A stretch of 63,563 nucleotides of DNA, the filler included, from Chrysochromulina tobinii (taxonomy: Eukaryota), in the NCBI GenBank assembly GCA_001275005.1. It is 6 parts of 6 records of this genome, joined end to end, with 100 filler letters (N's around TTAATTAATTAA, not from the genome) between each part and the next. Parts side by side here need not be neighbours in the genome. Positions count along the whole stretch, not along the records: positions 1 to 16,238 come from JWZX01000734.1; 5 more parts are not named here. One strand, 5' to 3'. Of this stretch, positions 1,033 through 45,000 are shown piece after piece; positions within the stretch are counted from its first letter, which is position 1; each line of letters begins with the position of its first letter. Position numbers and translations under genes: made by a program. The notes under the pieces are model-generated. The model searched no databases and had not been told where the DNA came from. It saw only the letters and a list, made by a program, of their open reading frames with translations.

Positions 1033-1320
1033 ACATGGAATGTTTTCGCAGTGGTACGGGAAAACCGGGGCTTTTTTAGGGTTAAATTGCCGGCACCTTT
1101 TCGGGTCCGTCGATTCTCCATTAGTAGGAAAGTTTGCTTTTGGAGTCCGAACCATACCTGTACTCGCACGCACTCGAGGGTTTAGCGTACCTCCCCAAGC
1201 GATGAACGTGTACTACGGCGATCGTGTACATGTACTCGATGGGCGTTGTCGACCAAGTTGAGCCTTCTCTGGGTTTTCTTGTGAGAATGGTGTAGGATTC
1301 TGATTGGGGCGCTGACAATT

Positions 1321-1640
1321 CAGCGCTGTGGGGCGGGGGACTGAGGATTCAGCCGGTAAAGTCGGGGTGTGTAGGATTCAGCCGGTAAAGTCGGTGTGAG
1401 TGTAGGATTCAGCTGTTCACTCCCGTGTGTAGGATTCACCATCATCGGAAACGCGAATCCTACAATCCTTGGAGCCAGAGGACCACGCTCGCTCACCGAA
1501 TGCTGACGTCGCCGGTCGTGGATGCCCGTGCCCGGAACCGTGAATCCTACACACACCGGTGTGAACAGCTGATCCTACACACCGACTCGTTTACCGGCTG
1601 AGGATCATCAGACTTCAGAGTCAGTGCCGCCCCGCGCGCT
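1321..1640. repeat. Imperfect foldback (inverted repeat) built from GTGTAGGATTC subrepeats; MITE/foldback-like
   Basis: 1380-1438 (agccggtaaagtcggtgtgagtgtaggattcagctgttcactcccgtgtgtaggattcac) is an approximate reverse complement of 1540-1599 (gtgaatcctacacacaccggtgtgaacagctgatcctacacaccgactcgtttaccggct). Confidence 0.7.
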
Positions 1641-2080
1641 ACCCGCGCGCCGCGCCCGCACGGGCCGCGGCACCACGCGGGCGGGCGCTGAATCGTGAGC
1701 GGCCGCCCGCTATCCGTGAATCCTCCGGGCGCATTAACATATGAATACCTCGCATAGATTGTCGACCTCCATCCTCCTCAACGACCGGACCCAACGTGCA
1801 GACCCAACGTGCAACCTACCGGAAATCAAACGAAACACATCGGAATGGCTTGGCACACGCGCGGCCAAGCCCCCCCCCCTCACCGCACAGCTTCGATTCC
1901 TCACCCGCGCAGCGGAGCCTGGCCACGAAACACACACCGCAGTCTTCCTCTCTAAAAAGCCGCGCCACGCTCAGCGCCACACCACGTCAGGTAGTACGCG
2001 CCCCCACCACGATTTGCCGTACGCGCCGGCGTGTGGAACCAACATCTCCGAGATTGAATCTCCGGACCGTCGAGGGTGTC

Positions 2081-2254: not shown

Positions 2255-2501
2255 TGAACCGCGAGACAGAATCGGCGTGATCGGCGCGCCCCACTTGACG
2301 AAACACATGCGCACTCGCTGACACTCTGTACCATGCGCCACTCTGCCACCGCTGTGGGCAACCAGTCACGTGTGCCTTGCCTAATTCGGCTTGCCAGTCG
2401 ACTTGCCTAATCCGGCATGGTACTCGTCCTTTCACCGCCAAGGGTTTGGCGCGAGAGCTGGACTCGGACTCGGTCCATCCAGCCCACCTAGCCATCTTAT
2501 C

Positions 2502-5500
2502 TTAGGCAGTGAAGTCCTCCTCCTCCGTCTTCGGCTTGCCCACCTCGGTCGAGACCATCTTCTCAAGCTTGCGCAGCTCGGGCTCGGGCAGGTCGGACTT
2601 ATCGACGTACCTGTGGGAAAGGGAGGAGAGGGCGCCGTGGTGAGCACTTGCATGCAGCCGTCGTGCTCGAGCGCGCCTCCGCCATCTCGAGCTTGGCGAC
2701 GTACCGCTTGGCGACGTATCGCAATCAGAGTTCATCAGAGGTAATCCGATCGAATTGGGGTCGCAATCAATGCCGCGGCACGACGTACCGCTTGAGCGAG
2801 GCAATCAGAGGTCATCAGAGGCAATCAGAGGTCATCAGAGGCCATCAATGCGGCGGCACGACGTACCGCTTGAGCGAGAGAGCGAGGAGCACATCTGCGA
2901 ACTTGACGAGCCCTCCCGGTTTCTCGACCTTGAGCTTCTTCGCGATGGACCTGGCGCTGTTGGCGGCGTCGTCCTCGCCGAAGGTGCCGAGGGGCGGGGG
3001 CACCTTTGCAATGAGCTCCGGCAGCATGCTTTCAGGGAGCTTGTTGTTGGCCTCCGGATCGAGCTCAGCCCATGCTTCCATGAAACCGTCAATGTCGGAG
3101 GGCGAGACGAGGTCGGGGTTCTGTGAATGTGAACAACGACGGGTGGTGGGCATCAGTGGTCATCAAGGGCGATGGTCATCAAGGGTCATCAATGGTCATC
3201 AAGTGATCATCAGTGGTCATCAGTGGTCATCAGTGGTCATCAGAGGTCATCAGTGATCATTTTCGCACCTGCTCGGAGAGCGAGGTGAAGTTCTCGATCC
3301 ATGGTCATCAGAGGTCATCAGTGGTCATCAGTGGTCATCAGTGGTCATCAGTGGTCATCAGTGGTCATCAGAGGTCATCAGTGATCATTTTCGCACCTGC
3401 TCGGAGAGCGAGGTGAAGTTCTCGAGGATCACAGCGACCATCAGGTTGAGGAACACCAACGTGCCGAAGAGCTGGAAGGTGACGAAATACGGGATCGCGA
3501 CCCATGAGCCGCAGTCGACGCCCTCGGTGCACAGGCCGGACTCTTCCTGCACGAGCGAATCTTGGAGCAGCAGCGTCCAGCCGTCGCCGGTCACCGACTG
3601 GAGCAGCAGCAGCATACCTGTGGGGAGAGGAGAGGGCGCCGTGGTGAGCACATGCATGCAGCCGTTGGTCACCGACTGGAGAAGCAGCAGCATACCGTTG
3701 CCCACGGTCTGGAAGTTGCCATCAGTTGCCATCAGTTGCCATCAGTTGCCATCAGTTTCCATCAGTTTCCATCAGTTTCCATCAGTTGCAATCAGTTGCA
3801 ATCAGCAGCATACCGTTGCCCACGGTCTGGAAGTTGCCATCAGTTGCCATCAGTTGCCATCAGTTGCCATCAGTTGCAATCAGCAGCATACCGTTGCCCA
3901 CGGTCTGGAAGTTGGCATGAGATTCGACGTTGTCCTGAAGGACCAACGTCGCGAACAGGTGCATGCCGAGGACGGCATAGATGAACATGACGAGCGCGAG
4001 CAGCGAGCACACGTTGAACACGGGTGGGAGAGAGAGGATGATGGTCGTGACGAGGTCACGCAGCCCCTTGACGCCCTTGAGGATGCGCAGGATCCGCACG
4101 ATCCGGAGCAGGCGGAGCACGCGGAGCAGGAATGGCGGCACCGGCAGGTAGGCCGTCAGGTCCGCCGCGAGGTCGTCGATGAGTGCGGTGCAGACGAGCA
4201 CGAAGTCGAAACGGTTCCAGCCGACCGAGAAGTAGCCTGATGAGGGGGCGCAATCGGAGGTGCAATCAGTCGCAATCAGAGGTGCACTCAATCGCAATCA
4301 GAGGTGCCATCACTGATGAGGGGGCGCAATCGGAGGTGCTCAGTCGTGCTCAGTCGCAATCAGAGGTGCCATCAGTCGCAATCAGAGGTGTGCTCAGTTG
4401 CAATCACGTACCAATCGGGCCGAGCGAGAAGATCTTGAGTGCAAACTCGGTATAGTAGACGCTGATAAAGAAGCGCATCGCGTAGTTGTACGCATCGCCC
4501 TTGGTCATCTCGAAGCCGGAGATCGAGATGAACGCGTCGTCCTCAAACTGGTACGATTTGCACGCCATCAGCAGCGTGTTCAGCAGGATGATCGTGATGA
4601 TGAAGATGTCGAAGTTGACCGACATGACGAGCTTGAAGATGTACATGCGCATCGAGCCTTCGGGCGGCGGCACTCCCTTCATCGGCTTCGCGAGCACAGC
4701 TGTCTTGATCGTCTGGACCCATTGGAGCTGAGCGCCGGTCATGGTAGCCGAGCCCGCGCCCGTCTCGGCGGCGATCGAGTTGAACGTCTCGACGATCGCG
4801 CCGATGAAGAGGTTGAGCGCGATGAAGGCGCCGACGAACATCCACGAGATCGTGAAGAGTGCGGCGGGCGAGTAGTCGTTGCGCACGGGCGCCAGGCCGG
4901 GGCCCTTGGCGGCCATCGCCTGGAACATCTCCGTCTCCCAGAGATCGCCCGAGGTCTGTGTGGAGATCGTGAGGAGATCGTGAGGAGATTGTGGGGAGAT
5001 CGTGGGGGGGATCGTGATGAGTCGTGAGGAGATCGTGAAGAGATCGTGAGGAGGGGGCGGCAAAACAAGGGCGCTCAAGGGCAAATCGATGGCAATCGAG
5101 GGCAATCAACCGGGAGAGCGTACCTGGAGGAAGAGCGCGAGCATCGCCGAGCCGAAGTTGTCGAAGGAGTTGCCTGGAGGGTTCTCCCACGTGTTGCCCG
5201 CCGTCACGCACTCCTCGACGGTGGCGATGGTCGGATCCTCCGTGCACATCGCGAAGGTGCCGGCGAACATCTGCATACCGAGGATGGGGCAAAGTCGGCA
5301 ATCAAGGGCAATCAAGGGCGATCAAGGGCGATCAAGGGCATCAAGGGCAATCAAGGGCACTCAAGGGCAAAGTCGGCAATCAGAGAGGCCGTCAGAGGCC
5401 GTCAGAGGGCCATCAAGGGCAATCAAGGGAGATCGCACCTGCATGCCGAGGATGGCGAAGACCGCTTGGATGAAGAGGTAGACGGCAAGCACATTCATGA

Positions 5501-8500
5501 CGGCCGGGATCGAGGCGATGAGGGTCGCGACGATCACTTTCATCGACTCAATGCGACCGACGAGCCGCAGGGGGCGGAGTGCACGGAGCACGCGGAGGGA
5601 CTTGAGGGGGGCGAGCGCCTCAATGTCGAGCACTTCCGCGGCGATGACGGTGACGGAGACGAGGACGATGGCGAAGTCGAGTTGGTTCCAGCCGTTCTTG
5701 AGGTAGGCTCGCTCGGTGAAGAGGAAGCCATAGGCGATGATCTTGAGGAGCGCCTCGGTCACGAAGATGGCCTGATGAGGGGGGCAATCATGCGGCCCAT
5801 CAGAGAGGCCATCAGAGCAGCCATCAGAGAGGCCATCAGAGAGGCCATCAGAGAGGCCATCAGAGAGGCCATCCGAGAGGCCATCAGAGAGGTCATCAGA
5901 GAGGCCATCAGAGAGGCCATCAGAGAGGCCATCAGAGAGGCCATCCGAGAGGCCATCAGAGAGGTCATCAGAGAGGCCATCAGAGAGGCCATCAGAGAGG
6001 CCATCCGAGGCCATCTGAGAGGCCATCCGAGAGGCGATCAGAGATGTTCACAGCTCCAGCGGCACGCACCGTGAACACGTAGTTGGTGAGCGTCAGCTGG
6101 GCTTCGAGAGGCGATTCGGGGTCAAGGAGTGGCGAGTCGATGGCGAGCGAGACCGACGAGGCGATGATGATGAACAGGATGAACATCTCAAAGTTCGGGT
6201 GACGCACGAACCACTCGCAACACCTGTGGAAGACATGGCGAGTGCGTCATCAGCGCGTCGTCAGCGCGTCATCAGCGCGTCATCAGCGCGTCATCAGCGC
6301 GTCATCAGCGCGTCGTCAGCGCGTCGTCAGCGCGTCGTCAGCGCGTCATCAGCTTACCTGCGAATGCCGTTGCGCGGGCCGAAGAGGCAGAGCGAGTGCT
6401 CCTGGGGCCATGGCAATCAACGGCAATCAACGGCAATCAACGAACCACTCGCCTCACCTGCGAATGCCGTTGCGCGGGCCGAAGAGGCAGAGCGAGTGCT
6501 CCTGGGGCCAGGGCTTCTCGACGAGCAGGTCAGACTTGGGCGGCGGCTTGGGTGGCTCCTCCACGGGGATCGGCTCCTCGCCTGGGGGGAGGGGGGGGAG
6601 CGCCGTGGTGAGCACTTGCATGCAGCCGATCGAGCCGGCTGTTCGACGGGGATCGGCTCCTCGCCTGGCTCGGGCTCCTCTTCCTCGCCGAATGCCGAGA
6701 GCACCATGCCTGCACGCAGAAAGGGGGGGGGGCGAGTGTGGGGGGGGGCGATGAGAGCAGCCGGCGGGGAAGGGGGAGCGATGAGTGTGGCCAGCGGAAG
6801 CCTTCGGTGCTATCCATGGCAATCAACGTCAATCAACCGTAATCCATGGTAATCAACGGGAGCGTACCGATGAAGATGTTCATGATGAAGGGACGCAATC
6901 AGCGGCAATCAATCAGCATGCAATTCGAGTCTGCGTACCGATGAAGATGTTCATGATGAGGAACGAGCCGACGCACATGCAAGGCACAAAGTACCAGAGG
7001 ACCTTGGGGCCGAGCACCGCCGAGGCAGCGAGAGAGGAGTCGACCCACTCGCCCGTGAACAGGATGAAGACCGAGATCAGGCCGGGCACGAAGTGGTCGA
7101 AGTTGGCGTAGTATGGGTGCTCCTCGAGGTCCGGGTTGGGGCAGACGGCGCCCGGGCAAGGCACCTCGGAGTAGCCAGCATCCTCGGTGTAGATGCCGCC
7201 GAAGAACTGTGGCGCAGGGGATGGTCAGGAGCGGTCAGGAGCGGTCAGGAGCGGTCAGGAGCGGTCAGGAGAGGTCATCAGCGGTCAGGAGAGGTCATCA
7301 GCGGTCAGAAGAGGTCATCAGCGGTCATGATCAGCGGTAATCAGGAGACATCCATTGCGTCAAATGGATGCCGAGGCAATCAAGGGACCATCAAGGGACC
7401 ATCAAGGGAGATCAAGGGAGATCGCACCTGCATGCCGGCGAGCACGAAGACGAGCATGAAGAGGAAGGTGACGATCCCGAGCGACGAGATCTTGGGGAAG
7501 ACGCGGATGAGGGTCGCCACGATGCTATAGAGCCCTTTCCACGACTGCATCAGGCACGGGGGACGCGCTGTGGTGAGCACTTGCATGCAATGCAGGCCGT
7601 CCGCATGCAATCACGATGTTATAGAGCCCTTTCCAAGACTGCACGGCGCGCTGTGGTGAGCACTTGCATGCAATCAACGCACCTTCATCAGGCGCAGGGC
7701 ACGCGCGATCCGAAGGAGACGCAGCATCCGAAGGAAGGAGAGCTGCGGAATCTCGCCGTCCGCGAAGACCGTGAGCACCTCCGTCACGAGGATCTCGAAG
7801 AGGGAGAGGAGCACAATCGTGCCGTCGAGCACGTTCCAGTTGTCCGCCCAGTAGCCGCCGCAACTGATGAGGGAGGCAATCAGGCAGGCCATCAGTGCCA
7901 ATCAATGGCATAGAGTGTTCCAGTTGTCCGCCCAGTAGCCGCCGCCCCCGAGGCGGAGGAGCTTGAGTAGCTTCATCAGTGGCAATCAATGGCAATCAGT
8001 GGCAATCAGTGGCAATCACCCGAGGCCGAGGAGCTTGAGTAGCTTCATCAGTGGCAATCAGTGGCAATCAATGGCAATCAGTGGCAATCACCCGAGGCCG
8101 AGGAGCTTGAGTAGCTTCATCAGTGGCAATCAGTGGCAATCAGTGGCAATCAGTGGCAATCACCCGAGGCCGAGCAGCTTGAATAGCTTCATCAGTGGCA
8201 ATCGATGGCAATCAGTGGCAATCAGTGGCAATCACCCGAGGCCGAGCAGCTTGAGGAACATCTCGAAGGCGAAGAGGAGCGTGATGACGAGACCGACGGA
8301 CTCGAGCTGCGCCGCATACCTGTGGGGAGAGGAGAGCGGGAGTTTCGTCAAGGAGAGCGCGCCGTGCTGAGCACTGGCATGTGCGGGGAGGGGGGGGGTT
8401 CGGACGAGTTCGGGCTGGGCCGTTTACTCCTCGCTCATGCCCGCGTATGGCATGCACATCAGGACCATGTTGATCTGTGAAGAACCGTGTGAAGGGCCGG

Positions 8501-10970
8501 AGTTACGCGCGCCGTGGTGAGCGTGGGCGTGGGAGTTGCGCATCGGACATGTCGATAGCAATCAATGGCAATCAATAGCAATCAACGGCCATCAATGGCA
8601 ATCAATGGCAATCAACGGCAATCAATAGCAATCAACGGCCATCAACGGCCATCAATGGCCATCAACGGCCATCAACGGCCATCAATGGCCATCAACGGCG
8701 GATCAACAGCAATCAATAGAAATCAACGGCCATCAATGGCCATCAATGGCCATCAACGGCGGATCAACAGCAATCAATAGAAATCAACGGCCATCAATGG
8801 CAATCAACGGCGGATTAACGGCAGACCCGCGATCTTGAACGAAAGTCACCGAGCTGTTGCCGAGGCCATCAACGGCACTCAATGGCTACTCAATGGCAAA
8901 ATCACTTGCAGTCAACGGCAGTCAACGGCAATCAATGGCAATTGCAATCACTTGCAGTCAACGGCAGTCAACGGCACTCAAGGGCAATTGCAATCACCAG
9001 CACGAGAGCGATCGAGCAGTTGCCAAGGAAGGCTGAGTTGGCAACCTTCTCCATGAACCCAGGCTCCGCCGAGGGCTGTGAAAGCTTCTTAGAGGAGGCC
9101 GTTGCGTCCATCTCCGCAGCGCGCTTCTCCATCTCCGCGGCGGCCAGGTCGACGCGGCCGAGCTGCGTGAACTCCTCGAAGAGGACGGCGAGGAAGAGGT
9201 TGCGCACCTGTGGGGAAGAGAGAGGGCGCCGTGGTGAGCACGTGCATGCAGGGCGCGTGCACGGGCAGGAGGTGGTGACTCACGAAGCAGCCCGAGATGA
9301 TGATGACGCCGAGGTAGTAGAGGACCACCTGATGAGGGAGGCGATTGAGAGGGTCATCAGACGTGATGAGGGAGGCGATTGAGAGGGTCATCAGACGTGA
9401 TGAGGGAGGCGATTGAGAGGGTCATCAGACGTGATGAGGGAGGCGATTGAGAGGGTCATCAGACGTGATGAGGGAGGCGATTGAGAGGGTCATCAGATGG
9501 GTCCTCGAAGGGACACATGAGTGGCCATCAAACGCCTTCGGTCCAGGCCATCAGAGGTCATCAGAGGCCATCAGAGATCATCAGAGATCATCAGAGGCCA
9601 TCAGAGGCCATGCCTTCAGAGGCCATCAGAGGCCATCAGAGGTCATCAGATGCCACCAGTGGTCATCAGAGGTCATCAGTGGCGCTCGTACAAGGCTCGA
9701 GCCGGTGTAGTCCATGAGCGCAAACATCGAAGTCTCCCAAGTGTCCCACGTGGACGTTTGCATCAGCGTGACCGAGGCCATGAGCACGCTGTCGTAGGAC
9801 ATCATGTTGTTGAACGGCTGTGACTCGAAATACGCGCACGTCTGGTCCGCTTCGCACATATCGCCCTCCGGATTGCAGGCAACTTCAGTGTCGAAGTCGG
9901 CTTCGTCAGAGACGCCCGGCTTGAAGCCCTTGAGCGCGCACCTGCATGCAATGAGGGAGCCCATCAGCTGAGTTGGCCAATTAGGGACGCCTGGCTCTGC
10001 ATGCAATGAGGGAGCCCATCAGCTGAGTAGGCCAATTAGGGACGCCCGGCTCTGCATGCAATGAGGGAGCTCATCAGCCGAAAAGGCCAACGACAGCCGT
10101 CCAAAGCGCCGTCTCGAGCGCTCGCACCGGTAGTGGAGCATGCCATCAGCAATCAGGCGCAATCATGCGCAATCAGGTGCAATCAGGCGCAATCAGCAAT
10201 CAACAATCAGGCGCAATCAGCAATCGGACGCACCGGTAGTGGAGCATGCCCTGGAAGAGCTCCATGCCCACGATGCCGAAGACGACGAACACGAAGATGA
10301 AGAGCATCGTCACGTTGCCAAGCTTCGGAATCACGTCCATGATGCCCTCGACGATCACCTTGAGGCCGGGGATGATCTTCATCGCGCGGAGCGCACGGAA
10401 TGCGCGGAGCGCTCGGAGCGAGTTGACGTTCGGCAGGTCGATGCCCGTCAGCAGGATCGGCGCCCACGCGCACGACACCACCACGAAGTCAAGTTGGCAC
10501 CATCCATCGTGCAGATAGCAGTTCTTGTTGCCGATGATGCCGTACGCCAGCATCTTGAGGAGCATCTCGACCGTGTAGGCGTACAGGAAGAAGACTTCCA
10601 GCTGATCAATGAAATCCGCCTTCCACGTGCCGGGTGGGTCCATCGGAGACTCCCACGCCATCACGCTCACGTTGAGCAGGATCACCATTAGGATCAACGG
10701 ATCGAACCACCAAGTGTTGATGAACTCAATCGCCCAATTGCGCGGGATCATGTCCGGCTTCAGGCAAAGGAGCGACACGCCATTCGGATCATAGGTGCGG
10801 CCATCGGGCCTAATGATCTCGACCGGCTGTACAAAGCCAGAACCCTTGGGCGTCTTCGGCGCCGCACCCTTGCCGCCAGGCGCCGCACCCTTGCCGCCAG
10901 GCGGTGAGGGCGGCTTGCTTGGTGGTTTCTTTGCATCGGTCGGCGGCGACTTTGGATCCTTGGGTGCCAT
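2502..10970 (-). CDS. Four-domain voltage-gated cation (Cav/Nav family) channel alpha subunit, 19 exons, about 1404 aa
   Basis: Exons read by hand: 10970-10234, 9941-9692, 9328-9284, 9207-8998, 8474-8428, 8319-8236, 7863-7683, 7544-7428, 7206-6939, 6709-6665, 6581-6458, 6223-6070, 5771-5439, 5270-5124, 4955-4412, 4236-3892, 3617-3397, 3120-2867, 2610-2502. They total 4215 nt with consistent phases; 17 introns are GT-AG and one is GC-AG. Four S4 segments (LRALRAFRALRAMK, LRMLRLLRIARALRLMK, LKSLRVLRALRPLR, LRVLRLLRIVRILRILK), four pore loops, NLFLAV/NIFIG/NLFIGA/NLMVAV S6 motifs and a C-terminal EF-hand-like WAELDP...PPPLG region. Confidence 0.93.
5798..6030. repeat. Intronic 12-bp microsatellite (GAGGCCATCAGA)n
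   Basis: Read directly; lies in channel intron 6069-5772. The sense-strand unit is TCTGATGGCCTC. Confidence 0.95.
9331..9497. repeat. Intronic 34-bp tandem repeat, 5 copies, each carrying an acceptor-like CCTCCCTCATC word on the sense strand
   Basis: gatgagggaggcgattgagagggtcatcagacgt starts at 9331, 9365, 9399, 9433 and 9467. Confidence 0.95.
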
Positions 10971-11228
10971 GCTGCTCCCAGCTGCTTAGCCTCGACTCGA
11001 GCTTTGTCTCGACCTCCGCGCGCACACGTCCCGCTGGGAGTGCACGAGATGAGAGAGAGTTGGCCGCCAAAACGCAGTTCGGATCGTCGCCCAAAATGAA
11101 ACATGATTTTTAGGGACAAAAACCGAAAAAAAGGACGAAACCCAAAACACTGACGAAACTAACAAGTCGATTACAGTCGACTGTACCCCACCACATTGTC
11201 TCACGTCGCCGCACATACGAAGGCGAAG

Positions 11229-16338: not shown

Positions 16339-17231
16339 TTGGCCTTGCGTTCTTCCCCCCGACCGGCCCCGCCGCCGTCGGACGCGCCAGTGTCCTCCTT
16401 CGCGCTGAGCACCGCGAGCTCGAGCCCCGCCCCCGTCGCGGCCTTCAGCTCGCGCACGACCACATCGAACGACGACTTCACGCGCGCCGCGTCGGAAAAG
16501 AGCACGGCCGCGACGCCCGCCTCGTCGCGCTGCTCGGCGACGGCGGGCTTCTCGATCGCGGCGTCGAGGTCGCCGACCGCCGCCTCGTACTTGGCCATGC
16601 CGTCCGCGTCGCCGCTCTTGATCACATTGAACACGCTCCCGTAGACCGACTGAAAGTCCTTGTTGCCCGCATCGATCGCCGTCTGGCACGCCTTGACCAT
16701 CGCCTTCGCCGCCTCCTCGCCCACGCCCTCGGTGCGCCTTTTAATCTCGGTGGCCATCACCTGATCCACCACGGCGAGCTGCGCACCCAGCGCGTCGACG
16801 GCCTCCTTGGAGTCTGGGGCGCGCGCCACGTTCAGCTCGAGGCCGTGCAGCAGGGCGCACGCTGCCTCGATGGCTTCGGTCTTGGCCAGTGTCTTAAAGG
16901 TATTGAGCGCCTCGGGCAGCTTGGCCGCGTGCTCGTCGTCGCCTTCCGTGGCCGCCGTCGACTTCATTGGGCCCAGCGCCTCGGCCGCCCTCTTTTGAAG
17001 CGGCCGGAGCGCTTCGGGCACCTCGGACCGGGCCTCGACCTCGCCAACCGGCGGCGTCTCGCCCTGCTTGGCCCCCTGCTCGAGCAGCCAGCGCCCCAGA
17101 TAGGTGAGCGGCCATTTTTCCGGCCGCGCGTCAGCCAGCGCATTGATGGCGGTGCTGAGAGCCGCCTCGAGCCTATCGCAGTGCTGGTCGACGAACGCAT
17201 TCCGCGCCTGCACGTCGCGTGCGGCGCGCAT
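16339..17231 (-). CDS. Hypothetical protein with an N-terminal Dpy-30/RIIa-like dimerisation motif, 3' truncated
   Basis: LEAALSTAINALADARPEKWPLTYLGRWLLEQ resembles the Dpy-30 motif. The frame is open to the linker. Confidence 0.6.
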
Positions 17232-17706
17232 CCGTCGACGCGCGGGAACAGATTCTCGGAGCCTGCCCTGCCTCACCGGTCCGGACCAACAGCGCCGGCT
17301 CACGACCGGCCCTTAAAATCGAAGATTTCACACAAAAACTGCCGAATCGAAGATGTCGGTTCATGATCACCCAATTATCACCGCACAATCTCTTGATTAG
17401 AACTTTCGAGGCTATTTTCAGACGAGGCGTCTTATCCCGCGATTGAATTATCTCCGAGTCAACAATAGCACAGGACCGCTGCGCGTGCGTCCGCCCCTCT
17501 CACAGCATGCCTTGCTTAGTTTTTTGGCATGCATTCACCGAGGCGATGACAACTTTTCTGGACCTTTCCGTTACACGCTCCTGCCCCGGAAACCGCTCTT
17601 GCGACCGGGGCTCCACTTGAACAAGGTAACCCTCCGGCCCGCTTGCTTGCGGGCCCTCCTGGCGCCCCTAGCTGGTGGCCCGTTCAACGGCAGGGGGCCC
17701 ATCTCC

Positions 17707-20700
17707 ATGGAGGCCATACGCACCTTGTGCAGCCCGCATCCGTGGGAGGAGGACCCCGCCGTGTTCGCGAGCGCCCTCGGTCAGCTCGCCGAAGTGGCGG
17801 CGATGGCGGACCTCGAGGATGCAAGCAAGCTGAGCAAGGCGGCCCGCGAGGCGGGCGCCCTGCAGCTCTGCTGCGACGCCGTGCGCCACGAGAGCGCGCG
17901 GGTGCATCAGCCGGCGCTCGCGGTGCTCGTCTGCTTCACGACCACGGAGGTCGACCCGGACGCGCACCTGAACCGAGCGATCGTGTCGGCGCACCCGCGC
18001 GGCTTCGAGGGCGTGGTCGAGCGGCTCTTCTCCGACGTGCCGCTCACGGTCGCCTTGGCGTGCGGCGCGCTGCAGAACCTGTGCCGCTCGGACGTTGCGC
18101 ACGTCGCCATGCTCTCCACATGCGGCGGCACCGAGCGGCTTCGATCGCTGACGATGTGCGGCCAGGACGGGATCGCCGTCGCGGCGAATGCATGCCTGAC
18201 GAACCTGCTCGGCTGGCATCGTGCCGCCTCCCGGGTACAGCTGCGATCGCTGATTGCCACTGATGACCGGCCTTTGCATGCAAGTGCTCATCGCAGCGCG
18301 CGTCCGCCTGGCAGGTCCAGCTGCGCTATCTGCGCCACCAGCGGCGCGTCATGGGCTTGCAGCTCAGGCGCATGAGTCATCTGAAGATGACGTCATTACC
18401 TAATTTGGGACGAGCTGCGCCCGCCCTCATCACCCTCGACGGCCAGCCCTCTCTCGCGACGGCCAGCCCGATTGTAAGTGCTCACTACGGCGCCGGGCCG
18501 CCCAGCATGCAAGTGCCCACCACGGCGGCGACGGCCAGCCCGGGCCCACCCTCGGTTTGCATCGCGCTCGTGCTCTTCAACCTTGTCGTGGCGTCGGCGG
18601 ACCAGGCTGAGTACCAGGCTGATGGCGCTCGAGACGGCGCTCGAGGTGGGAACGGTGCCCGGAGCCGATCCATCACGGATCCTAATTTGGGAGACCTCAC
18701 GGATCCTAATTTGGGAGACCTCGCGGATTTTCGAGCAGCACCGCCTCCTCCACCGCCAGCACCTCCTCCGCCGCCACCGCCGCCCGGGCTCCTCGCAGAG
18801 CAGTCGACCATCGCCGCCGCGGCGGCGGAGGCGCAAGCGGCCAGGGCCGACGCCGCAATGCAGAAGGTCGTGGTGGCGCGAGCGGCAGCAGCGGCTACAG
18901 CGGCGGCGGCGGCGGAGGCGGCCGCCGCCGCCGCGTCCACCGAGCCGCATGCCACTCCCAAAAAGGGACTTTCGTTGTTCAAGAGCGCTGGTCGGGCGGC
19001 GCTCACCGCCAATGCGATGCGACTGGAGCAGATACAGCGAGGTGATTGCATGCTGATTGCCTCCCTACTCATCGCCAATGCGATGCGACTGGAGCAGATA
19101 CAGCGAGGTGATTGCATGCTGATTGCCTCCCTACTCACCGCCAATGCGATGCGACTGGAGCAGATACAGCGAGGTGATTGCATGCTGATTGCCTCCCTAC
19201 TTGCATGCGACTGGAGCAGATACAGCGAGGTGATTGCATGCTGATTGCCTCCCTATTTGCATGCAATGCGAAGCGACTGGAGCAGATTCAGCGAGGTGTC
19301 GAGGAGCGGCGGCGTGCGTCCTAAATATGAGTGCATGCTGATTGCCTCCCTACTTGCATGCATGCACAGGAGTCGAGGAGCGGCGGCGTGCGTCCTAAAT
19401 ATGAGTGCATGCTGATTGCCTCCCTACTTGCATGCATGCACAGGTGTCGAGGAGCGGCGGCGTGCGTCCGCCTTGGCGGCCGAAATGTTCCGTCAAGCGG
19501 TGGCGTCGGAGCAGGCGGCGGCGGCGGAGGCGGCTCGCCTTGAGGCTGAGGAGCAAGCGAACGCTCGCAAGGCGGCCTTGGAGGCTGCACTGGCGGAGGT
19601 TTGATGAGCTTATGATGACCAATGATTGCCTCCCTCATCAACTCTGATGATGGCCCCTGATGCCCACATTGATTGCCTCCCTCATCACAGGTGGCCGCGG
19701 AGGCGGAGCGTGCACGCACGATGATTGCCTCCCTCATCAGCTCTGATGCCCACAGTGATTGCCTCCCTCATCACAGGTGGCCGCGGAGGCGGAGCGTGCA
19801 CGCACGGCAATGCATGCGGCGGCTGTTGCCAAGTGGGGAAAGGTAATCGCCTCTGATTGATGCCTCTGCCGGCTGCGCTTGAGTGCCCCTTCCTTAAGTG
19901 CCCCTGAGTGCCTGTATGCCTCGGAGTGCCGCTGAGTGCCCCTGAATGCATCTGAGTGCTTCACTCATTCGCTCGCCGTGGTCGACTGCGGACAGGCCGC
20001 GGCGTTGCAAGAAGCCGAGGCGGCGCGTACTGCGAGCGAGGTCGCTGTGGAACAGGTGATTGCATGCTGATTGCCTCCCTCATCAGAGGTCGCTGTGGAA
20101 AAGGCGCGGCTCCGCGTGGCTCGACGAGATGGCGCGGAGGTCTGATGATACTCTGATGAGCTGATGAGCTCTGAGGACCTACGATTGCCTCCCTCATCAG
20201 GCGCGGCTCCGTGTGCTCGACGAGGTGATTGCATGCTGATTGCCTCCCTACTTGCATGCTGATTGCCTCCCTCATCAGGCGCGGCTCCGCGTGCTCGATG
20301 AGGAGGCTGCACGTGCGACGGCGGAGGAAGCCGCGGCCGAGGCGGCTGCGAGGGCGTCGGAAGCGGCCGCGCGCGAGGCGGCCGCGTCGGCCGAAGCCGC
20401 CGCTGCCCGTGCCGCCGCGTCGGAGGCCAAAGGCGAGGCGGCGCTGATGGCGTCGGAGCTCGAGGCGAGATCGTCGGAGCTCGAGGCGAGATCGGCGGAG
20501 CTCGAGGCGAGATCGGCGGAGCTCACGATCTCGATGGAGCTCCGGCGGGAGGTTGAGCGTCGGGCCGCCGAGGAGCTCGAGGCGTGCCGTTTGGCGGCGC
20601 ACGCGGCGGCGCGCACGCGGCAGGCCGAGGTGAGGAGCCTGATTGCCATTGATTGCCTCTCTCATTGCATGCACGCGGCAGGCATTACGATTCTTTGTGT

Positions 20701-23597
20701 CCCGAGCCCTATTCCAAACCCTCACCCGAAGCAAAATCCTGAGCCTGCCCCCCTGGGCCTTGTGACATTGGGTGATGGCTTCGAAGGAACATGATTGCAT
20801 GCTGATTGCCTCCCTACTTGCATGCCTTCATAGGTGATGGCTTCGAAGGCGAGGCTCGCCGTCGCCGCATCGGGTCGCGAGCGTTTGGAGGAGACCCTCC
20901 GAAGGGCTGAAGGTCAGTTGAGCGAGGCCCAAGCTCAAGCGCAGGCCGACGTCCTGGCGAGGCTGGCGGCGGAGGAGGCGGCGGGGCGTGCGGCGGCGGC
21001 GGCGGAGGCGGCCGAGGCGCGGGCGCTCGCGGCCGAGGCGCTGGTGGTGCGTACGGAGGAGATGACGTCTGATTGCCTCCCTCATCAGCTCTGATGATGG
21101 CCTCTGATGCCCACAATGATTGCCTCCCTCATCACAGGTGCATACGGAGGAGATGACGGCCAGCCGCTTAGCCGCCGCAGAGGAGGAGGCAGCACGTGAG
21201 CCAGCTTCCGTGATGAGCATAAGAGTTTGAATGTGCTTGTGATGAGGGAGGCAATCACTGTGGGCATCAGAGGCCATCATGAGTTTGAATGTGCCTACGA
21301 TCGCCTCTGATGGCCTCCCTCATAAAGCACGGCCGCTGAGGGGCTATCCTCTGATTGCCATGGATGGCCTATGATTGCATCTGATGGCCTCTCTCATCAG
21401 GCACGGCCGCCCAGCTCCTCTGTGAATACGAGACCGCCGAGGCGGAGCGAAGGTGTGAATACGAGGCAGCCGAGGAAGAGCGAAAGCGTTGCCTTGATGA
21501 ATGGGGTGCAAAGATGGCGCAGGCGGAGGCGACGGCGGCGGCGGCGATTGAGGACGCAAACCTGCGTGTGATGGAGGCGGAGGCGGAGGCGGAGGCGCGG
21601 GCCGCGGCGGTGGCGCGAGAGAGTGCGGCTGCAGTCCAAGCAGCGCAGGTTTGATGACCAACTGATGGGCCTCTGATGGTCCCTCTGTTGGGCCTCTGAT
21701 TGGCCCTCTGATGGGCCTCTGATTGGCCCTCTGATGGGCCTCTGATGGCACACTGATGACCAATTGATGGCCCACTGATGACACACTGGTGGCCCTCATT
21801 CTGTTTCCGATCTGAGTGCCTTACGATTGCCATCTGATCGCCACCTTTCTGATTGCCCCCCTCATTGCATGCAGGTTGGCGCGGCCCGCCTGTTGGAGGA
21901 AGGCCTCGCGGCTGCCTGCTGATTGCCACCCTCATTGCATGCAGGTTGGTGCGGCCCGCCTGCTCGAGGAAGGCCTCGCGGCTGCCAAGGCATCGGAGGC
22001 AGCGGCCGTGCAGCATGCAATTGACGAATCCTCAGCCAAAGAGGCCGCCCAAAGCGCGCTCGCAATCGCCTCCGCGCGACACCTGAGCTCGCAAGCGGAG
22101 CTCGAATCTCAAATCGAGAGATTGCGAGCGGAGCTCGAATCTGAAGCTGCAAGATTGCAATCTGAGCTCGCGGAGCGGACGACCGAGGTGGCGCGCCTGT
22201 TCGCAGCCCTGAGCCGTGAACAGCAGGAGTGCCAGGCGCTGCAGGCGAAGGTGCTGCGAGGCGCGCGGCTGGCGTCGGCGCATACGCTCGAGTTGGCGGC
22301 GCTGCGGGGACGGCTCGCGCGGCGCACGATCCAGATGGCGGCCTTGGAGGAGGAGGTACGTGACGCAACCCAAGTGTCACCCGAGTGCCTCTGATGGAGT
22401 CTTGATTTCCTTGGAGGTTTGTGAATGCCACCTAATTGGAGGCACCTGATTGCCACTTAATTGCCACCTGATCGCCACCTAATTGCCACCTGATCGCCAC
22501 GGATTGCGGCCACACACACCGATGTCGAAGAACGGCCTTTGCTTGCATGCACATAGGTGCGAGCGACGCAGCTCGTCCTAAACATGATTGCATGCTGATT
22601 GCCTCCCTACTTGCATGCACATAGGTGCGAGCGACGCAGCTCGTCCTAAACATGATTGCATGCTGATTGCCTCCCTACTTGCATGCACATAGGTGCGAGC
22701 GACGCAGCTCGTCCTAAACATGCGAGATTGCGACGTGCATGCACTCAAGGCGCTCTTGCACGCCCGGGCGTCGCCGCCCACATCCCCCTCTCTCGGGCCT
22801 CATCTCGGCCCTAATCTCGGGCCTAATCTCGGGTCTCATCTCGGGCCTAATCTCGGGCCAGCGTGGTCAACCTCGGCCCCCGCACGCGGCCCGGCGCGTT
22901 CGAGCACAGGCTTGGTCTCAGGTCTCGTCAGCACAGGCATGGTCTCAGGTCTCGTCGAGCACTCGCGCCAAGTCGAGGCCGCCAGAGGCAATCTGTACAC
23001 TCACATGCAATCCCATGCCCTCCGCGGCCTGATGACCGACGCGAGGCCCAAGCCTCCCAACACGGCGCTACACAACCTCCTCGGTGCAGACTCATCCTCG
23101 GATGCTTCCGCTGCCGCCGCCGCCGCCGCTACCGCCGCGCCGGCTGCCGCTGCGTTCATCGCTGTGGACTCGCCCAATACAGCGCTCCAGCCCCCACCGT
23201 CGCTGCCTCGGCTACACGTAGCGCCGCCCCGTGCCGGAGCTGCACCGGAGATCGCGCTCGCAGCAGGTCCAGGCGCCGTACTGGGCGCCGGCGCAGGTCA
23301 CTCATGTGCATGCACCGGGGGAGCAGGTCACTCGTGTGCACGCATCTCGATGGGAGGTTGCATCTCGATGGGAGGGCTCTCGCCGTCATCAAGCCCCCCT
23401 CCCGAGATGCCACCTCCCGAGGAGGAGATGCGTTGGAGATCGCGAGCTCGCCCCCCCGCGCCCGAGCGAGCTCGCGAGCTCCACAGCCGAGCTCGCAATC
23501 TCAACCGAATCTCGATGCTCCTCGCCGACGAGATGCTCCAGGTGGGCGTCGTGGTGGGCAGCAACAAGGAGGACGGCGTGGCGGGCGGCGCCGGCGC

Positions 23598-42088: not shown

Positions 42089-45000
42089 CTAACCTGTGAA
42101 GTGTGAATTAATAACATTCAATTCACACTTCACAGTTCCGAGCGCGGGCACCCGCACGCGCCCGAAGCGACATTCGTAGTGTGAGCCACCACCGAAGCCG
42201 GCGCCGACGAGGGTGAGGTTGATGCCGCCGACGGCGGGGCCGAGGGGCGGGAGGAGAGCGGAGACGACGGGCGTCGCCTCGAAGAAGAAAGTGAGCGCGC
42301 TGGGCGCAACGTCCTGCGCATTCAAGCTGAGGCGGAGGGCGGCGGGTCCGGGGGCGAGCGAGCCTGGCGAATAGCATCGGACGTGCGCGTCGTCGATCAA
42401 CGTGGCTGGGCACGACGGTGTCATCATTGAAATGGCATCGGTATAGGTGGCGCTCACCCGCGCCCAGCCAAGCGCCGCTCACGGTCACCAGCGTGCCAAC
42501 GGAGCCGCCGCCTCGGCAGTCGAAGCTCGTGCACTGGATAGAAAACGCGGGCCCTCTTGCGGGACTCGCCTCCAGCAGCAAGGGCTCGGGAGCGAAGGTG
42601 TAGTTGAACGTGGTGGGCTCGTAATGCTCGCCGTTGAAGCTCACAGCAAGCACGACGCGACCCGGCGCGTGGGGCGGCGTGAGGCAGCGAAGGTCACCCG
42701 TGGCCGCGTCGTACGAGGCGCGCACGATGGCGGCACCCTCATCGGGCGCACTGTCCCCTTGGCCGACGGTGGGCGCGCCCTCTCCTTCCCCAAAGCGGCA
42801 GAGGAGGAGCGAGCCGAACTCGAGGGTGACGCCGGAGATGAGGACGAGGCTGGAGCCGTTGGCGGGCCCGAGGGAGGGGCGCACGCCGAGCAGCCGAGGC
42901 GACGGCTCCTCCCCGGCGATGATCTCGAACCGAAGCGAAGGGGCGAGCGAGTACTGCTGGCCGTTGAGCGTCACGTCGAGGGTCAGTGGCAGCGCGGTGG
43001 ACACGGCGTCGCTCACGTGCGAGCGAGCGGCCGCGAGCACATCAGGTGGTATCGCGGGCGCTGGGCACACGAGCAAGAGCCCGCCGCCCCCGATTTCGAG
43101 TGCACGCGTCTCCACCACGCCGAGGGTGGGCGCGCGGTAACGGCAGCGCGCGTCGGAGCCGTTGGCGAGCCCGCGCCCGCTCAAAAGGATCGGCCGACCG
43201 CCCAAACTCGAATCGAAGGTGGGGAAGACGCTGATGAGGCTCGTGCGGTCCGTCAAGTAACGGAAGCGGAGATTGTCGGAGGTGAAGTCGTGGCCGTTGA
43301 GCGCGATCTCGATCGCGAGCTCGCGCATCGGCCCGCGCACCGAGGGCGGCGTGAGGCAGAGGGCGTGCGTCGCGTTCACAATGGTGGCGGGCACCTCGTT
43401 CGGTGGCAGCCCATGCAGCGCGCGGGCACCGACGCCGTGTGCGCCTTGCAGCGCGTCACTCGTCGTGAGGGCACTGAGCGCGCCAAAGCCGCGCCGCCAC
43501 AGCGCGCCGCCAAAGCGGCAGACGGGCAGCGTGCCATGGCGCGTGAGGTTGGCACCTCGCACGTCGACGAGCGTGCCGCCGAGTGCAGGCCCGGTGGTGG
43601 GCGAGAGGGCGAGCAGCGCGGGAGGGTCGTAGAATCGAAAGGGGAGGGAGGAGGAGGTCTCGTCTTGGCCGTTGAGAGAGATCTGAGGAAGGAGCACGCC
43701 GGCACGCACGCCGGCAGGCGTGGCGCAGTGCACAAAGGGGGCGGCCGGCGTCGTGTTGAGCGCGGGCAGCACCCTTGGGCCCGCCCACTGCGCATTCGCG
43801 TGCGCATCCAGCGCCACGCCGCCGCCCCCTGGCCCGAAGCGGCAATAGTACGACGAGCCATCGCGCAGCCCTTCGCCCGCCAAGAGCAGCAACGAGCCCC
43901 CCGCCGTCGGCCCGCTCGCCGGGGTGATGGCGCTCACAATCGGCCGCCCAATGTAGACGAGGGGAGGCGCAGCGGATTCCTCGTAGTCCTGCCCGTTGCG
44001 CGTGATGTGCAGCGGCGTCGGCTGCGCCTCGGCAGGCGCGCCCACCCAAAGCCGCACGCGGCGCACGCGGCAGGCATTCGCGCCCACGCCGCTCGCCGCC
44101 GCAAAGCCGAGGCGCCACGAGGGATGCGGTGCCCAAGCCGGGATGGGGGCGCCCCGCAGCAGAGCATGCCCGTGGTACAGGATGCTCAAGCCGGCGCGTG
44201 CGCCGCCGTGCGTGCCAAGGTCGTACGCGAGGACCACGGGCACGTACGAGTCCACGCCGCTTGCGCCCGCGCTACCCACCGTGCCGTTGGCGCCGCCGCC
44301 CGCTGACGACGACAGCCCCGCTGACGGCGACGTGCCGCTCGCAAAATTGGCGCTCGCCAAGAGGTCCGCCAGCTGGTGCGCCGTCGTGTTCGGATCCCAC
44401 GCCGCTCGCTCCAAGGCAGCCTGCCGCTCCCACGCCGCCCGCTCCCGATCGCCCTCGTACTCCTCCATCTCCGCCGGCGAGTACTCCTCCTCCGCCTCCG
44501 CCTCCTCCTCCGCCTCCTCCGTGCGGTTCCTCCGCACTGCTACCGCGGCCGCCGCCGCCGCCGGCTGGCCTGCGCGGCGCGGCGCGGGCGGCAGCGCCAG
44601 AGAGTGGAGCACCTGGTCGCCATAGAGCACCTCGAGCCTCGCTGGCCGAAGGCGCGAGAGGAAGCGGAGGCGGAGCCCGAGGCTCGCGCCGCCCGCACCG
44701 AGCCCGCCATCGTCGGAGAGCTCGCCGTAGCTCACGCTCGCCCCGTCGCCATCGCGGCCGAGCTCCAGCTCAAACGAGAGCACGAGGTGCGCCGCGCCGC
44801 CGTAGCGCACGCCCTGAGGCGCCGCACACACGGCCGTACCCTCGGCGTCGTACGTGCTCGAGGGCGTGAGCTCGATGCTGCCGTCGGGTAGGTGGCGGGC
44901 AGCGCCGTGCACGGAGCAGTCGGCGGACGTGGCCTCGAGCGCGGCGCCGGCGGTGGCGGCGGGCGGCGTGTAGCAGATGAGCTGATCGTCAGTCGCGAGC

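What the first reader, a model, noticed from the sequence alone, without database searches (positions are those of the whole stretch)
2611..9250. Shared intron 3' module A (TGCATGCAAGTGCTCACCACGGCGC...CCCACAG) reused in unrelated introns
Seen: near-identical ~45-nt cassettes close the introns at 2611-2656, 3618-3660, 6582-6624 and 9208-9250. Two copies lie in intron 7682-7545, degenerate ones near 8320-8382 and 8475-8523, and related words on the + strand of another contig (18276-18292, 18474-18525). All are in sense orientation and supply a CTCAC branch-point-like word, a pyrimidine tract and the AG. Known: introner elements (e.g. Micromonas, Aureococcus) are intron families similar over their whole length. 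Here only the 3' cassette is shared and the 5' part is locally derived. Inference: a mobile or templated half-intron cassette.
Basis: partly seen in the sequence, partly recalled or inferred. Interest (0 to 1): 0.8.

Follow-up and report, generated by a model that had tools for sequence, protein, structure and literature searches.

The report
Cassette plus duplication makes new introns
In a haptophyte alga, unrelated genes carry short introns made of a 10-50-base duplicate of the neighbouring exon plus a shared half-intron cassette; three such introns in this ion-channel gene are missing in a close relative, so they are likely new, and they were likely copied in from the RNA of other spliced-out introns.

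Summary
The cassette is real: 8 matches in the window, 0 expected, and 152 distinct sites across the window and 139 metagenome loci. The layout is exon copy - cassette - exon copy.
Type I (66 strict sites) carries the branch-like word, pyrimidine tract and AG, and takes its GT/GC donor from a 10-47-nt duplicate of the downstream exon. Mirror type II (21 sites) carries the donor; in 16 the AG comes from a duplicate of the upstream exon.
RNA contigs splice 7682-7545 and 6664-6582. A close relative lacks the introns at 9283, 6664 and 3891 but keeps their neighbours. Alleles at 3618 show zero, one or two cassettes. Whole introns and flanks of the parent copy move between unrelated genes; antisense copies exist; there are no terminal inverted repeats.
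This is an introner-like mode of intron gain with long, variable target duplications. Likeliest mechanism (inferred, 0.45): target-primed reverse transcription of excised intron RNA. No enzyme was found. The scan noted the same footprint before on other DNA of this genome (e1-2577349).

The parts
2502..10970 (-). Host gene: four-domain voltage-gated cation channel, 18 introns, 1408 aa when spliced
   Evidence: Open frame across 18 GT/GC-AG introns. About 70% identical to P0001/P0002, whose clusters hold Chrysochromulina tobinii and C. parva channels. Pfam Ion_trans. The donors near 9685 and 8991 were set only approximately.
6582..6664 (-). 83-nt GC-AG type I intron: exon copy 6664-6635 + linker + core 6624-6600 + pyrimidine tract + AG
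   Evidence: Copy 25/30 identical to the exon start. An RNA contig in X13 skips 83 nt here. Site empty in P0187 and its cluster, in-frame allele in P0186.
3618..3695 (-). 78-nt type I unit (exon copy 3695-3666 + core 3660-3636 + tract + AG) at the 3' end of intron 3891-3618
   Evidence: 28/30 copy. Empty in P0052 and P0091-P0094, single in P0111, double in P0067/P0096/P0098. Not RNA-tested.
9208..9283 (-). 76-nt type I intron with an older exon copy; core 9250-9226
   Evidence: 18/28 ungapped identity to the exon start; comparable matches in 10 of about 6,666 random in-frame pairs. Empty in 15 of 15 fetched members of the 22-member P0043 cluster. Not RNA-tested.
2611..2704 (-). Older type I unit (core 2656-2632) at the 3' end of intron 2866-2611
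   Evidence: Decayed exon copy starts at 2704. The same site with a different tract is in L023. Not RNA-tested.
7545..7682 (-). 138-nt type II intron: own donor, two cores (7672-7648, 7589-7565), AG from a copy of the upstream exon end
   Evidence: Spliced in RNA runs X11, X12 and X13, continuous in DNA run X1. 20/24 and 30/32 duplicates.
8320..8427 (-). 108-nt intron with a degenerate core (8382-8359) and an old copy of the exon start
   Evidence: 19/27 identity; frame kept.
8475..8524 (-). Core lacking its 5' part (8524-8509), near an intron acceptor; no clear exon copy
18235..18314 (+). Predicted 80-nt GT-AG intron with the long 5' cassette, core 18275-18299 and an 11-nt exon copy
   Evidence: 10/11 copy and an open frame after removal. 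No RNA cover; a contig from another locus shares 18248-18300.
18456..18542 (+). Two degenerate cores between perfect 15-nt direct repeats; 72-nt in-frame insertion, possibly left in the exon
   Evidence: No RNA cover.

Best explanation
These introns consist of a shared 25-70-nt cassette set between two copies of 10-50 nt of the host exon, and they likely arise when a reverse transcriptase copies an excised intron RNA into staggered DNA nicks. Shown: the duplicate-cassette-duplicate layout, splicing of two such introns, empty sites in a relative, transfer of whole introns and parent flanks between unrelated genes, and antisense copies. Inferred steps: (1) the template is a spliced-out intron ending either at its AG or trimmed back to the GC-rich arm just past the branch A; (2) a nick primes copying from that 3' end; (3) copying stops at a variable 5' point and joins by about 4 nt of microhomology, or runs on to the GT; (4) filling the stagger duplicates the target; (5) selection keeps the sense insertions whose duplicate supplies the missing splice site, so that splicing restores the exon exactly. 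Each new intron would then be a new template, which would explain the two self-perpetuating lineages (type I with G and type II with A at core position 21).
For: 84 of 145 testable sites have an upstream copy anchored at the first exon base, above the 99% null; it begins GT in 59 and GC in 8. Strict type I: 66 sites, duplicate 10-47 nt (median 27), 22 perfect, intron 48-92 nt. Type II: 16 of 21 end in a copy of the upstream exon end (null 4%), and in 9 of 16 the copy starts directly after the core. Polarity: 83 of 335 copies of the 3' half lack the 5' part, while 3 of 232 copies of the 5' part lack the 3' arm; 26 copies lacking the 5' part at up to 1 mismatch against at most 4 for 150 coding control words. 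5'-junction overlap: mean 6.0 nt at 31 sites (4.0 by hand without two nested outliers) against null 1.6 +/- 0.3. L099 holds the L056 intron from GT to AG in an unrelated gene; L034, L049 and L137 share a whole intron at targets matching its last 12 nt. No parent exon is carried past the AG. Empty, single and double alleles exist. The presumed branch A is changed in 1 of 113 degenerate copies. Trimming of lariat tails is documented (PMC11146597, abstract and introduction); variable-length duplications and 5' truncation are non-LTR hallmarks (PMC9977147, passages).
Against: No reverse transcriptase, nuclease or autonomous element was found; no whole genome was available, and none appeared in 20 window ORFs. 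There is no poly(A) tail. The fixed AG and GT ends, the G before the duplicate (52 of 66 against 96 of 336) and the lack of parent exon are all expected from splicing selection alone. 35 of 66 type I junctions have bases that no other locus in the sample explains. Copies lacking the 5' part are not enriched for flanking repeats (14 of 85 against 67 of 595). Loci were fetched with the full core, which biases the end statistics. The hairpin shows structure-keeping changes (57 keep, 29 break; expected 30.5 and 67.5) but no two-sided compensation. Exon duplicates also occur in introns without the cassette, which fits a general repair process equally well.
Confidence: 0.45

Rival explanations
1. 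DNA-templated break repair (polymerase-theta-type end joining or fork template switching): at paired nicks the 3' end copies part of another intron's DNA by microhomology and returns upstream, and splicing selection filters the outcome.
For: Microhomology at junctions. Both orientations occur. About 12 of 18 channel introns and 26 of 87 module-B acceptors hold exon duplicates. A polymorphic 33-nt duplicate with only a 10-nt acceptor tail is in L100 and absent from L044. Break repair and tandem duplication are listed routes of intron gain (PMC3443670, passages).
Against: It does not predict the 5'/3' asymmetry (83 of 335 against 3 of 232) or the pile-up of ends exactly after the core (9 of 16; 16 of 111), nor copying that stops at both intron ends (L056 to L099).
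Confidence: 0.3
2. A tiny non-autonomous HUH (Replitron- or Helitron-like) element whose transposase recognises the core hairpin, giving variable target duplications and a fuzzy end carried from the parent copy.
For: Replitron-1 inserts after RG, carries parent flank at one end, makes variable duplications and has a terminal hairpin; one putative Replitron was found in C. tobinii (PMC10288648, passages and section 9). Type II matches these signs (AG before the insert in 20 of 21). A 5-bp hairpin is present.
Against: Type I is fuzzy at the opposite end. No terminal direct repeat was seen. Inserts of 35-72 nt are shorter than the roughly 52 bp that align at each Replitron end. The AG is demanded by splicing anyway.
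Confidence: 0.13
3. Old introns renewed in place: an extended branch-point consensus is homogenised by ectopic gene conversion, and junctions are duplicated locally and then trimmed.
For: 6 of 66 type I copies sit right behind an older acceptor. Tandem unit number varies between assemblies (L073 and L134). Branch positions are conserved.
Against: 3 of 3 tested sites are empty in a close relative that keeps the neighbouring introns, and empty in the outgroup; the simple one-unit allele P0111 has no older 5' part.
Confidence: 0.07
4. A classical MITE-type introner moved by a DDE transposase.
For: Splice-site recruitment from the target duplication is the same logic as in Symbiodinium, Polarella and a Chrysochromulina sp. 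family.
Against: No terminal inverted repeats (mean 2.0 nt against 1.8 shuffled). The duplication is 10-47 nt and variable instead of a fixed 3-8 nt, and the ends vary.
Confidence: 0.03

Closest known systems
Introners of Symbiodinium and Polarella glacialis classes 4/5 and 6/8/10 (bioRxiv 10.1101/2020.10.14.339549, parts 1-2 of 4 read)
   Same: [quoted passage not shown]
   Different: There the duplications have a fixed length per class (3-8 nt) and the Symbiodinium elements have inverted repeats. Here the duplication is 10-47 nt and variable, there are no inverted repeats, the element ends vary, and parent flanks hitchhike.
Chrysochromulina sp. introner family 5 (Gozashti et al., bioRxiv 10.1101/2022.06.06.494994, Fig. 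2C; passages and parts 1-2 of 5 read)
   Same: A haptophyte element about 70 nt long, without inverted repeats, that carries the 5' splice site and co-opts the 3' site: the logic of type II.
   Different: That family has a 4-bp duplication, and their pipeline needs similarity up to both intron ends, which type I introns would fail. Its sequence was not seen, so kinship is untested.
Intron gain by tandem genomic duplication or by break repair (PMC3443670, passages; PMC11782384, abstract)
   Same: Duplicated exon supplies splice sites, and direct repeats flank new introns.
   Different: Here a shared cassette copied from other introns supplies the second splice site and the branch point, and the process repeats across many genes.
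Replitron-1 and non-LTR (Penelope-like, Dualen LINE) insertions of Chlamydomonas reinhardtii (PMC10288648, PMC9977147; passages and one section)
   Same: Variable-length target duplications, 5' truncation (Penelope-like elements) and parent-derived fuzzy ends (Replitron-1).
   Different: Those are elements with known enzymes and were not reported there as intron makers; no enzyme is known here.

Membership tests
Introner / introner-like element (broad) | Many introns in unrelated genes share sequence | tested here: met
   152 distinct sites; unrelated flanks
Introner / introner-like element (broad) | Creates introns at new positions (empty sites in relatives) | tested here: met
   3 of 3 tested sites empty in a close relative; inferred from gene calls, not from its DNA
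Introner / introner-like element (broad) | Insert is spliced out of the mRNA | tested here: met
   7682-7545 in 3 of 3 RNA runs; 6664-6582 bridged in 1 of 3; the others untested
Introner (Gozashti 2022 definition) | Similarity extends to near both splice boundaries | tested here: not met
   5' parts of type I and 3' parts of type II are host-exon copies; only small subfamilies (L034/L049/L137, L056/L099, L007/L069) match end to end
MITE/DDE-type introner | Terminal inverted repeats | tested here: not met
   Mean 2.0 nt against 1.8 shuffled, 66 inserts
MITE/DDE-type introner | Short fixed-length target duplication | tested here: not met
   10-47 nt, median 27
Reverse-splicing introner (fungal ILE model) | Seamless whole-intron insertion without duplication | tested here: not met
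   Long duplicates at 84 of 145 sites; antisense copies
Non-LTR retrotransposition (TPRT) | Variable target duplication, fixed 3' end, truncated 5' end with microhomology | tested here: met
   partly confounded by splicing selection and by the search pattern
Non-LTR retrotransposition (TPRT) | Autonomous partner encoding reverse transcriptase and endonuclease; poly(A) or repeat tail | not testable with these tools
   No genome held; no poly(A) tail seen
Replitron | Rep HUH transposase and short terminal direct repeats | tested here: inconclusive
   No terminal repeat evident in the inserts; transposase not searchable; hairpin present without two-sided covariation
Rfam RNA families | Cassette matches a known structured RNA | tested here: not met
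   Only sub-threshold hits on 10-mer arrays in 2400-11000

The most novel reading that the evidence does not exclude
Ordinary spliceosomal introns act as their own mobile templates: excised intron RNAs are retro-copied into staggered nicks, and a 10-50-nt exon duplication completes the missing splice site. Introns would then beget introns with no transposon body, filling a once intron-poor haptophyte gene with 18 introns.
Probability: 0.4. Interest if true: 0.9.

Novelty: new variant of a known kind. Interest (0 to 1): 0.72.

Why it matters
How new spliceosomal introns arise is a long-standing question, and most recent gains have no visible source. Here the source, the target duplicate, the empty site and intermediate alleles are all readable, at an estimated ~1,700 stored stretches in the metagenome collection, in an organism that has mixed-culture DNA and RNA runs. 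Half-cassette introns would be missed by introner screens that demand end-to-end similarity, and they would decay into introns that look sourceless. RNA-templated and DNA-templated copying make different, testable predictions.

Tried and rejected
No whole genome or record handles were available.

The core pattern gave 0 hits in viral contigs and in prokaryote genomes. A shorter pattern gave 4 viral hits lacking the rest of the cassette, taken as chance.

Rfam gave only sub-threshold hits. The RNA test of the + strand copies failed for lack of cover of that gene in X12-X14; this is no evidence either way.

The summed depth over the cassette in DNA run X1 (about 17,000-23,000 against about 50) was not used as a copy number.

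P0007, P0011, P0036 and P0046 look chimeric and were dropped from the presence/absence reading. P0091 may be a partly spliced transcript.

The first duplication null (99 of 163 sites above its 99% level) was inflated by orthologous pairs and was replaced by the anchored test.

Whole-intron folding is not consistent across copies (z from -3.0 to +1.7). Local templating of the pyrimidine tail from the upstream exon was not seen (3.9 against 3.8 of 10). A repeat search was mis-specified and not rerun.

Ten paper searches found no description of this family. Most subscription papers are outside the library, and the supplements of the Gozashti and Roy papers, which list family sequences, were not seen and may bear on novelty.
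Full report
Setting. The window is five-times-gapped eukaryotic DNA. 10970-2502 on the minus strand is a four-domain voltage-gated cation channel: 18 GT/GC-AG introns give a 1408-aa open frame (two donors outside the cassette introns were set only approximately). Its best relatives, P0001 and P0002 (about 70% identical), cluster with C. tobinii and C. parva channels. The host is therefore a haptophyte related to, but distinct from, those species. No whole genome was held.

Observation. The 25-nt core occurs 8 times at up to 3 mismatches, and never in 100 shuffles. The four main cassettes are as described. RNA contigs from three runs skip exactly 7545-7682 while a DNA contig is continuous there. 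One RNA contig skips 83 nt, equal to the GC-AG intron 6664-6582 slid along its repeat. The other cassette introns rest on the reading frame and on homologues. The + strand gene had no RNA cover.

Anatomy. A metagenome scan returned 140 stretches (139 loci stored) from 5 of 64 parts, about 1,700 in all. There were no hits in viral contigs or prokaryote genomes. With the window, 194 matches reduce to 152 sites. At 84 of 145 testable sites, a copy of the sequence right after the first AG lies just upstream of the core, above the 99% null; it begins GT in 59 and GC in 8. The 66 strict type I sites have duplicates of 10-47 nt (median 27; 22 perfect), introns of 48-92 nt, and CCCACAG ends in 51. A mirror type II (21 sites) has its own donor about 29 nt before the core. 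In 16 of these the AG comes from a copy of the upstream exon end (null 4%), and in 9 of the 16 the copy begins directly after the core. Core position 21 is G in 69 of 79 type I and A in 18 of 21 type II sites. In the window, 6664, 3695, 9283, 8427, 2704 and 18235 are type I units of different ages, and 7682 is type II. There are no terminal inverted repeats.

Copying between genes. L099 contains the L056 intron from GT to AG, including L056's own exon duplicate, in an unrelated gene. L034, L049 and L137 share a whole intron at targets that match its last 12 nt, and L007 and L069 do likewise. Orientation is 89 sense, 7 antisense and 56 undecided of 152 sites; the classifier got 27 right, 2 wrong and 13 undecided on 42 held-out pieces. 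L044, L064 and L075 are clear antisense copies with flanking duplicates. Insertion therefore need not be sense, and selection likely makes the bias.

New positions. Prokaryote-style gene calls from relatives act as intron maps, because they run into intron sequence where introns exist. All 15 fetched members of the 22-member P0043 cluster (85% identical) start in the 9329 intron, cross the 9283 site without a break, and end at the next intron. P0052 and P0091-P0094 cross the 3891 site and read into the 3396 intron. P0187, with 7 cluster members, crosses the 6664 site and stops at the 6457 intron. Each of these clusters includes a member on a 44,885-nt contig. At 3618, alleles are empty, single (P0111), single with upstream arrays (the window) or double (P0067, P0096, P0098). 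Uninterrupted 1416-1460-aa calls on contigs of 9-21 kb in the C. tobinii/parva clusters indicate empty sites in the outgroup, and C. tobin averages one intron per gene (PMC4580454, passage). Parsimony gives gain. Caveats: this rests on proteins, not on the relative's DNA; four chimeric-looking proteins were dropped; P0091 may be a partly spliced transcript.

Mechanism. Of 335 copies of the 3' half, 83 lack the 5' part, while 3 of 232 copies of the 5' part lack the 3' arm. The excess survives a coding-aware null (26 against at most 4), but those copies are not enriched for flanking repeats (14 of 85 against 67 of 595). Of 111 duplicate-flanked sites, 16 end exactly at the core, with a second peak at the AG. 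At 31 of 66 type I junctions the duplicate overlaps the cassette by 6.0 nt on average (4.0 without two nested outliers, by hand) against 1.6 +/- 0.3; the other 35 have unexplained bases. The presumed branch A and five other positions are nearly invariant among 113 degenerate copies. The core can form a 5-bp hairpin with that A in the loop; substitutions favour pairing (57 to 29; expected 30.5 to 67.5), without two-sided compensation. A defined 3' end at the AG or just past the branch, variable 5' ends with microhomology, long variable duplicates and no parent exon fit target-primed reverse transcription of excised introns. Splicing selection explains part of this, however, and no enzyme was found, so I give it 0.45. 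DNA-templated repair gets 0.3, since 26 of 87 module-B acceptors and about 12 of 18 channel introns also hold exon duplicates. A Replitron-like HUH element gets 0.13.

Known systems. Splice-site recruitment from a target duplication is established for introners (bioRxiv 2020.10.14.339549, parts 1-2; bioRxiv 2022.06.06.494994, passages and parts 1-2; PMC11282704 and PMC12130899, passages), but with fixed 3-8-nt duplications. Fungal families insert seamlessly (PMC8469720, passages). Ten library searches found no account of this family; supplements listing haptophyte introner sequences were not seen. The branch-point consensus and the general TPRT picture are from my own knowledge.

Earlier scan. 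Finding e1-2577349, on another piece of this genome, reported a 66-nt intron with a 15-nt flanking repeat and related copies in metagenomes. I saw it after my own analysis. It agrees, gave the lead to the Polarella paper, and is not independent support.

Verdict. A real, introner-like process with an unusual footprint, in an intron-rich haptophyte lineage. That cassette plus duplication creates introns is well supported; the copying chemistry is open.

Noticed in passing
window 2502-10970 (-) and 19000-22750 (+): Most introns are filled with arrays of 10-12-nt units related to the 5' cassette, often between duplicated exon ends, and many end in a second shared acceptor module (module B).
   Followed up: partly
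L044 1226-1251 and L100: An antisense core supplies the stop codon of a gene that looks like a family-A DNA polymerase (recalled motif, not tested). Nearby, L100 has a 42-nt insertion (33-nt duplicate plus 10-nt acceptor tail) that L044 lacks.
   Followed up: partly
L075 1-85: An antisense core inside a duplicated AG|GT stretch of a DnaJ-like coding sequence (recalled likeness), forming a likely 70-nt intron; the reversed core contains a donor-like word.
   Followed up: partly
L073 2460-2610 against L134: An 82-nt duplicate-plus-cassette unit differs in copy number between assemblies.
   Followed up: partly
window 42123-50570 (-): A 2815-aa intron-free frame with IPT/TIG repeats, in contrast to the intron-dense channel gene.
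   Followed up: no
window 60863-63563 (+): A 900-aa cysteine-rich repeat protein without a Pfam match.
   Followed up: no
window 1310-1700: Intergenic near-inverted arrangement with 29-nt repeats upstream of the gene at 1-1030.
   Followed up: no
window 6357-6530: A 63-nt exon-end duplicate inside intron 6457-6224; an A>C difference at 6495 in all four runs laid may reflect this copy.
   Followed up: no
proteins P0007, P0011, P0036, P0046: Apparently chimeric gene calls joining different homologues or unrelated sequence, probably assembly artefacts in public data.
   Followed up: partly
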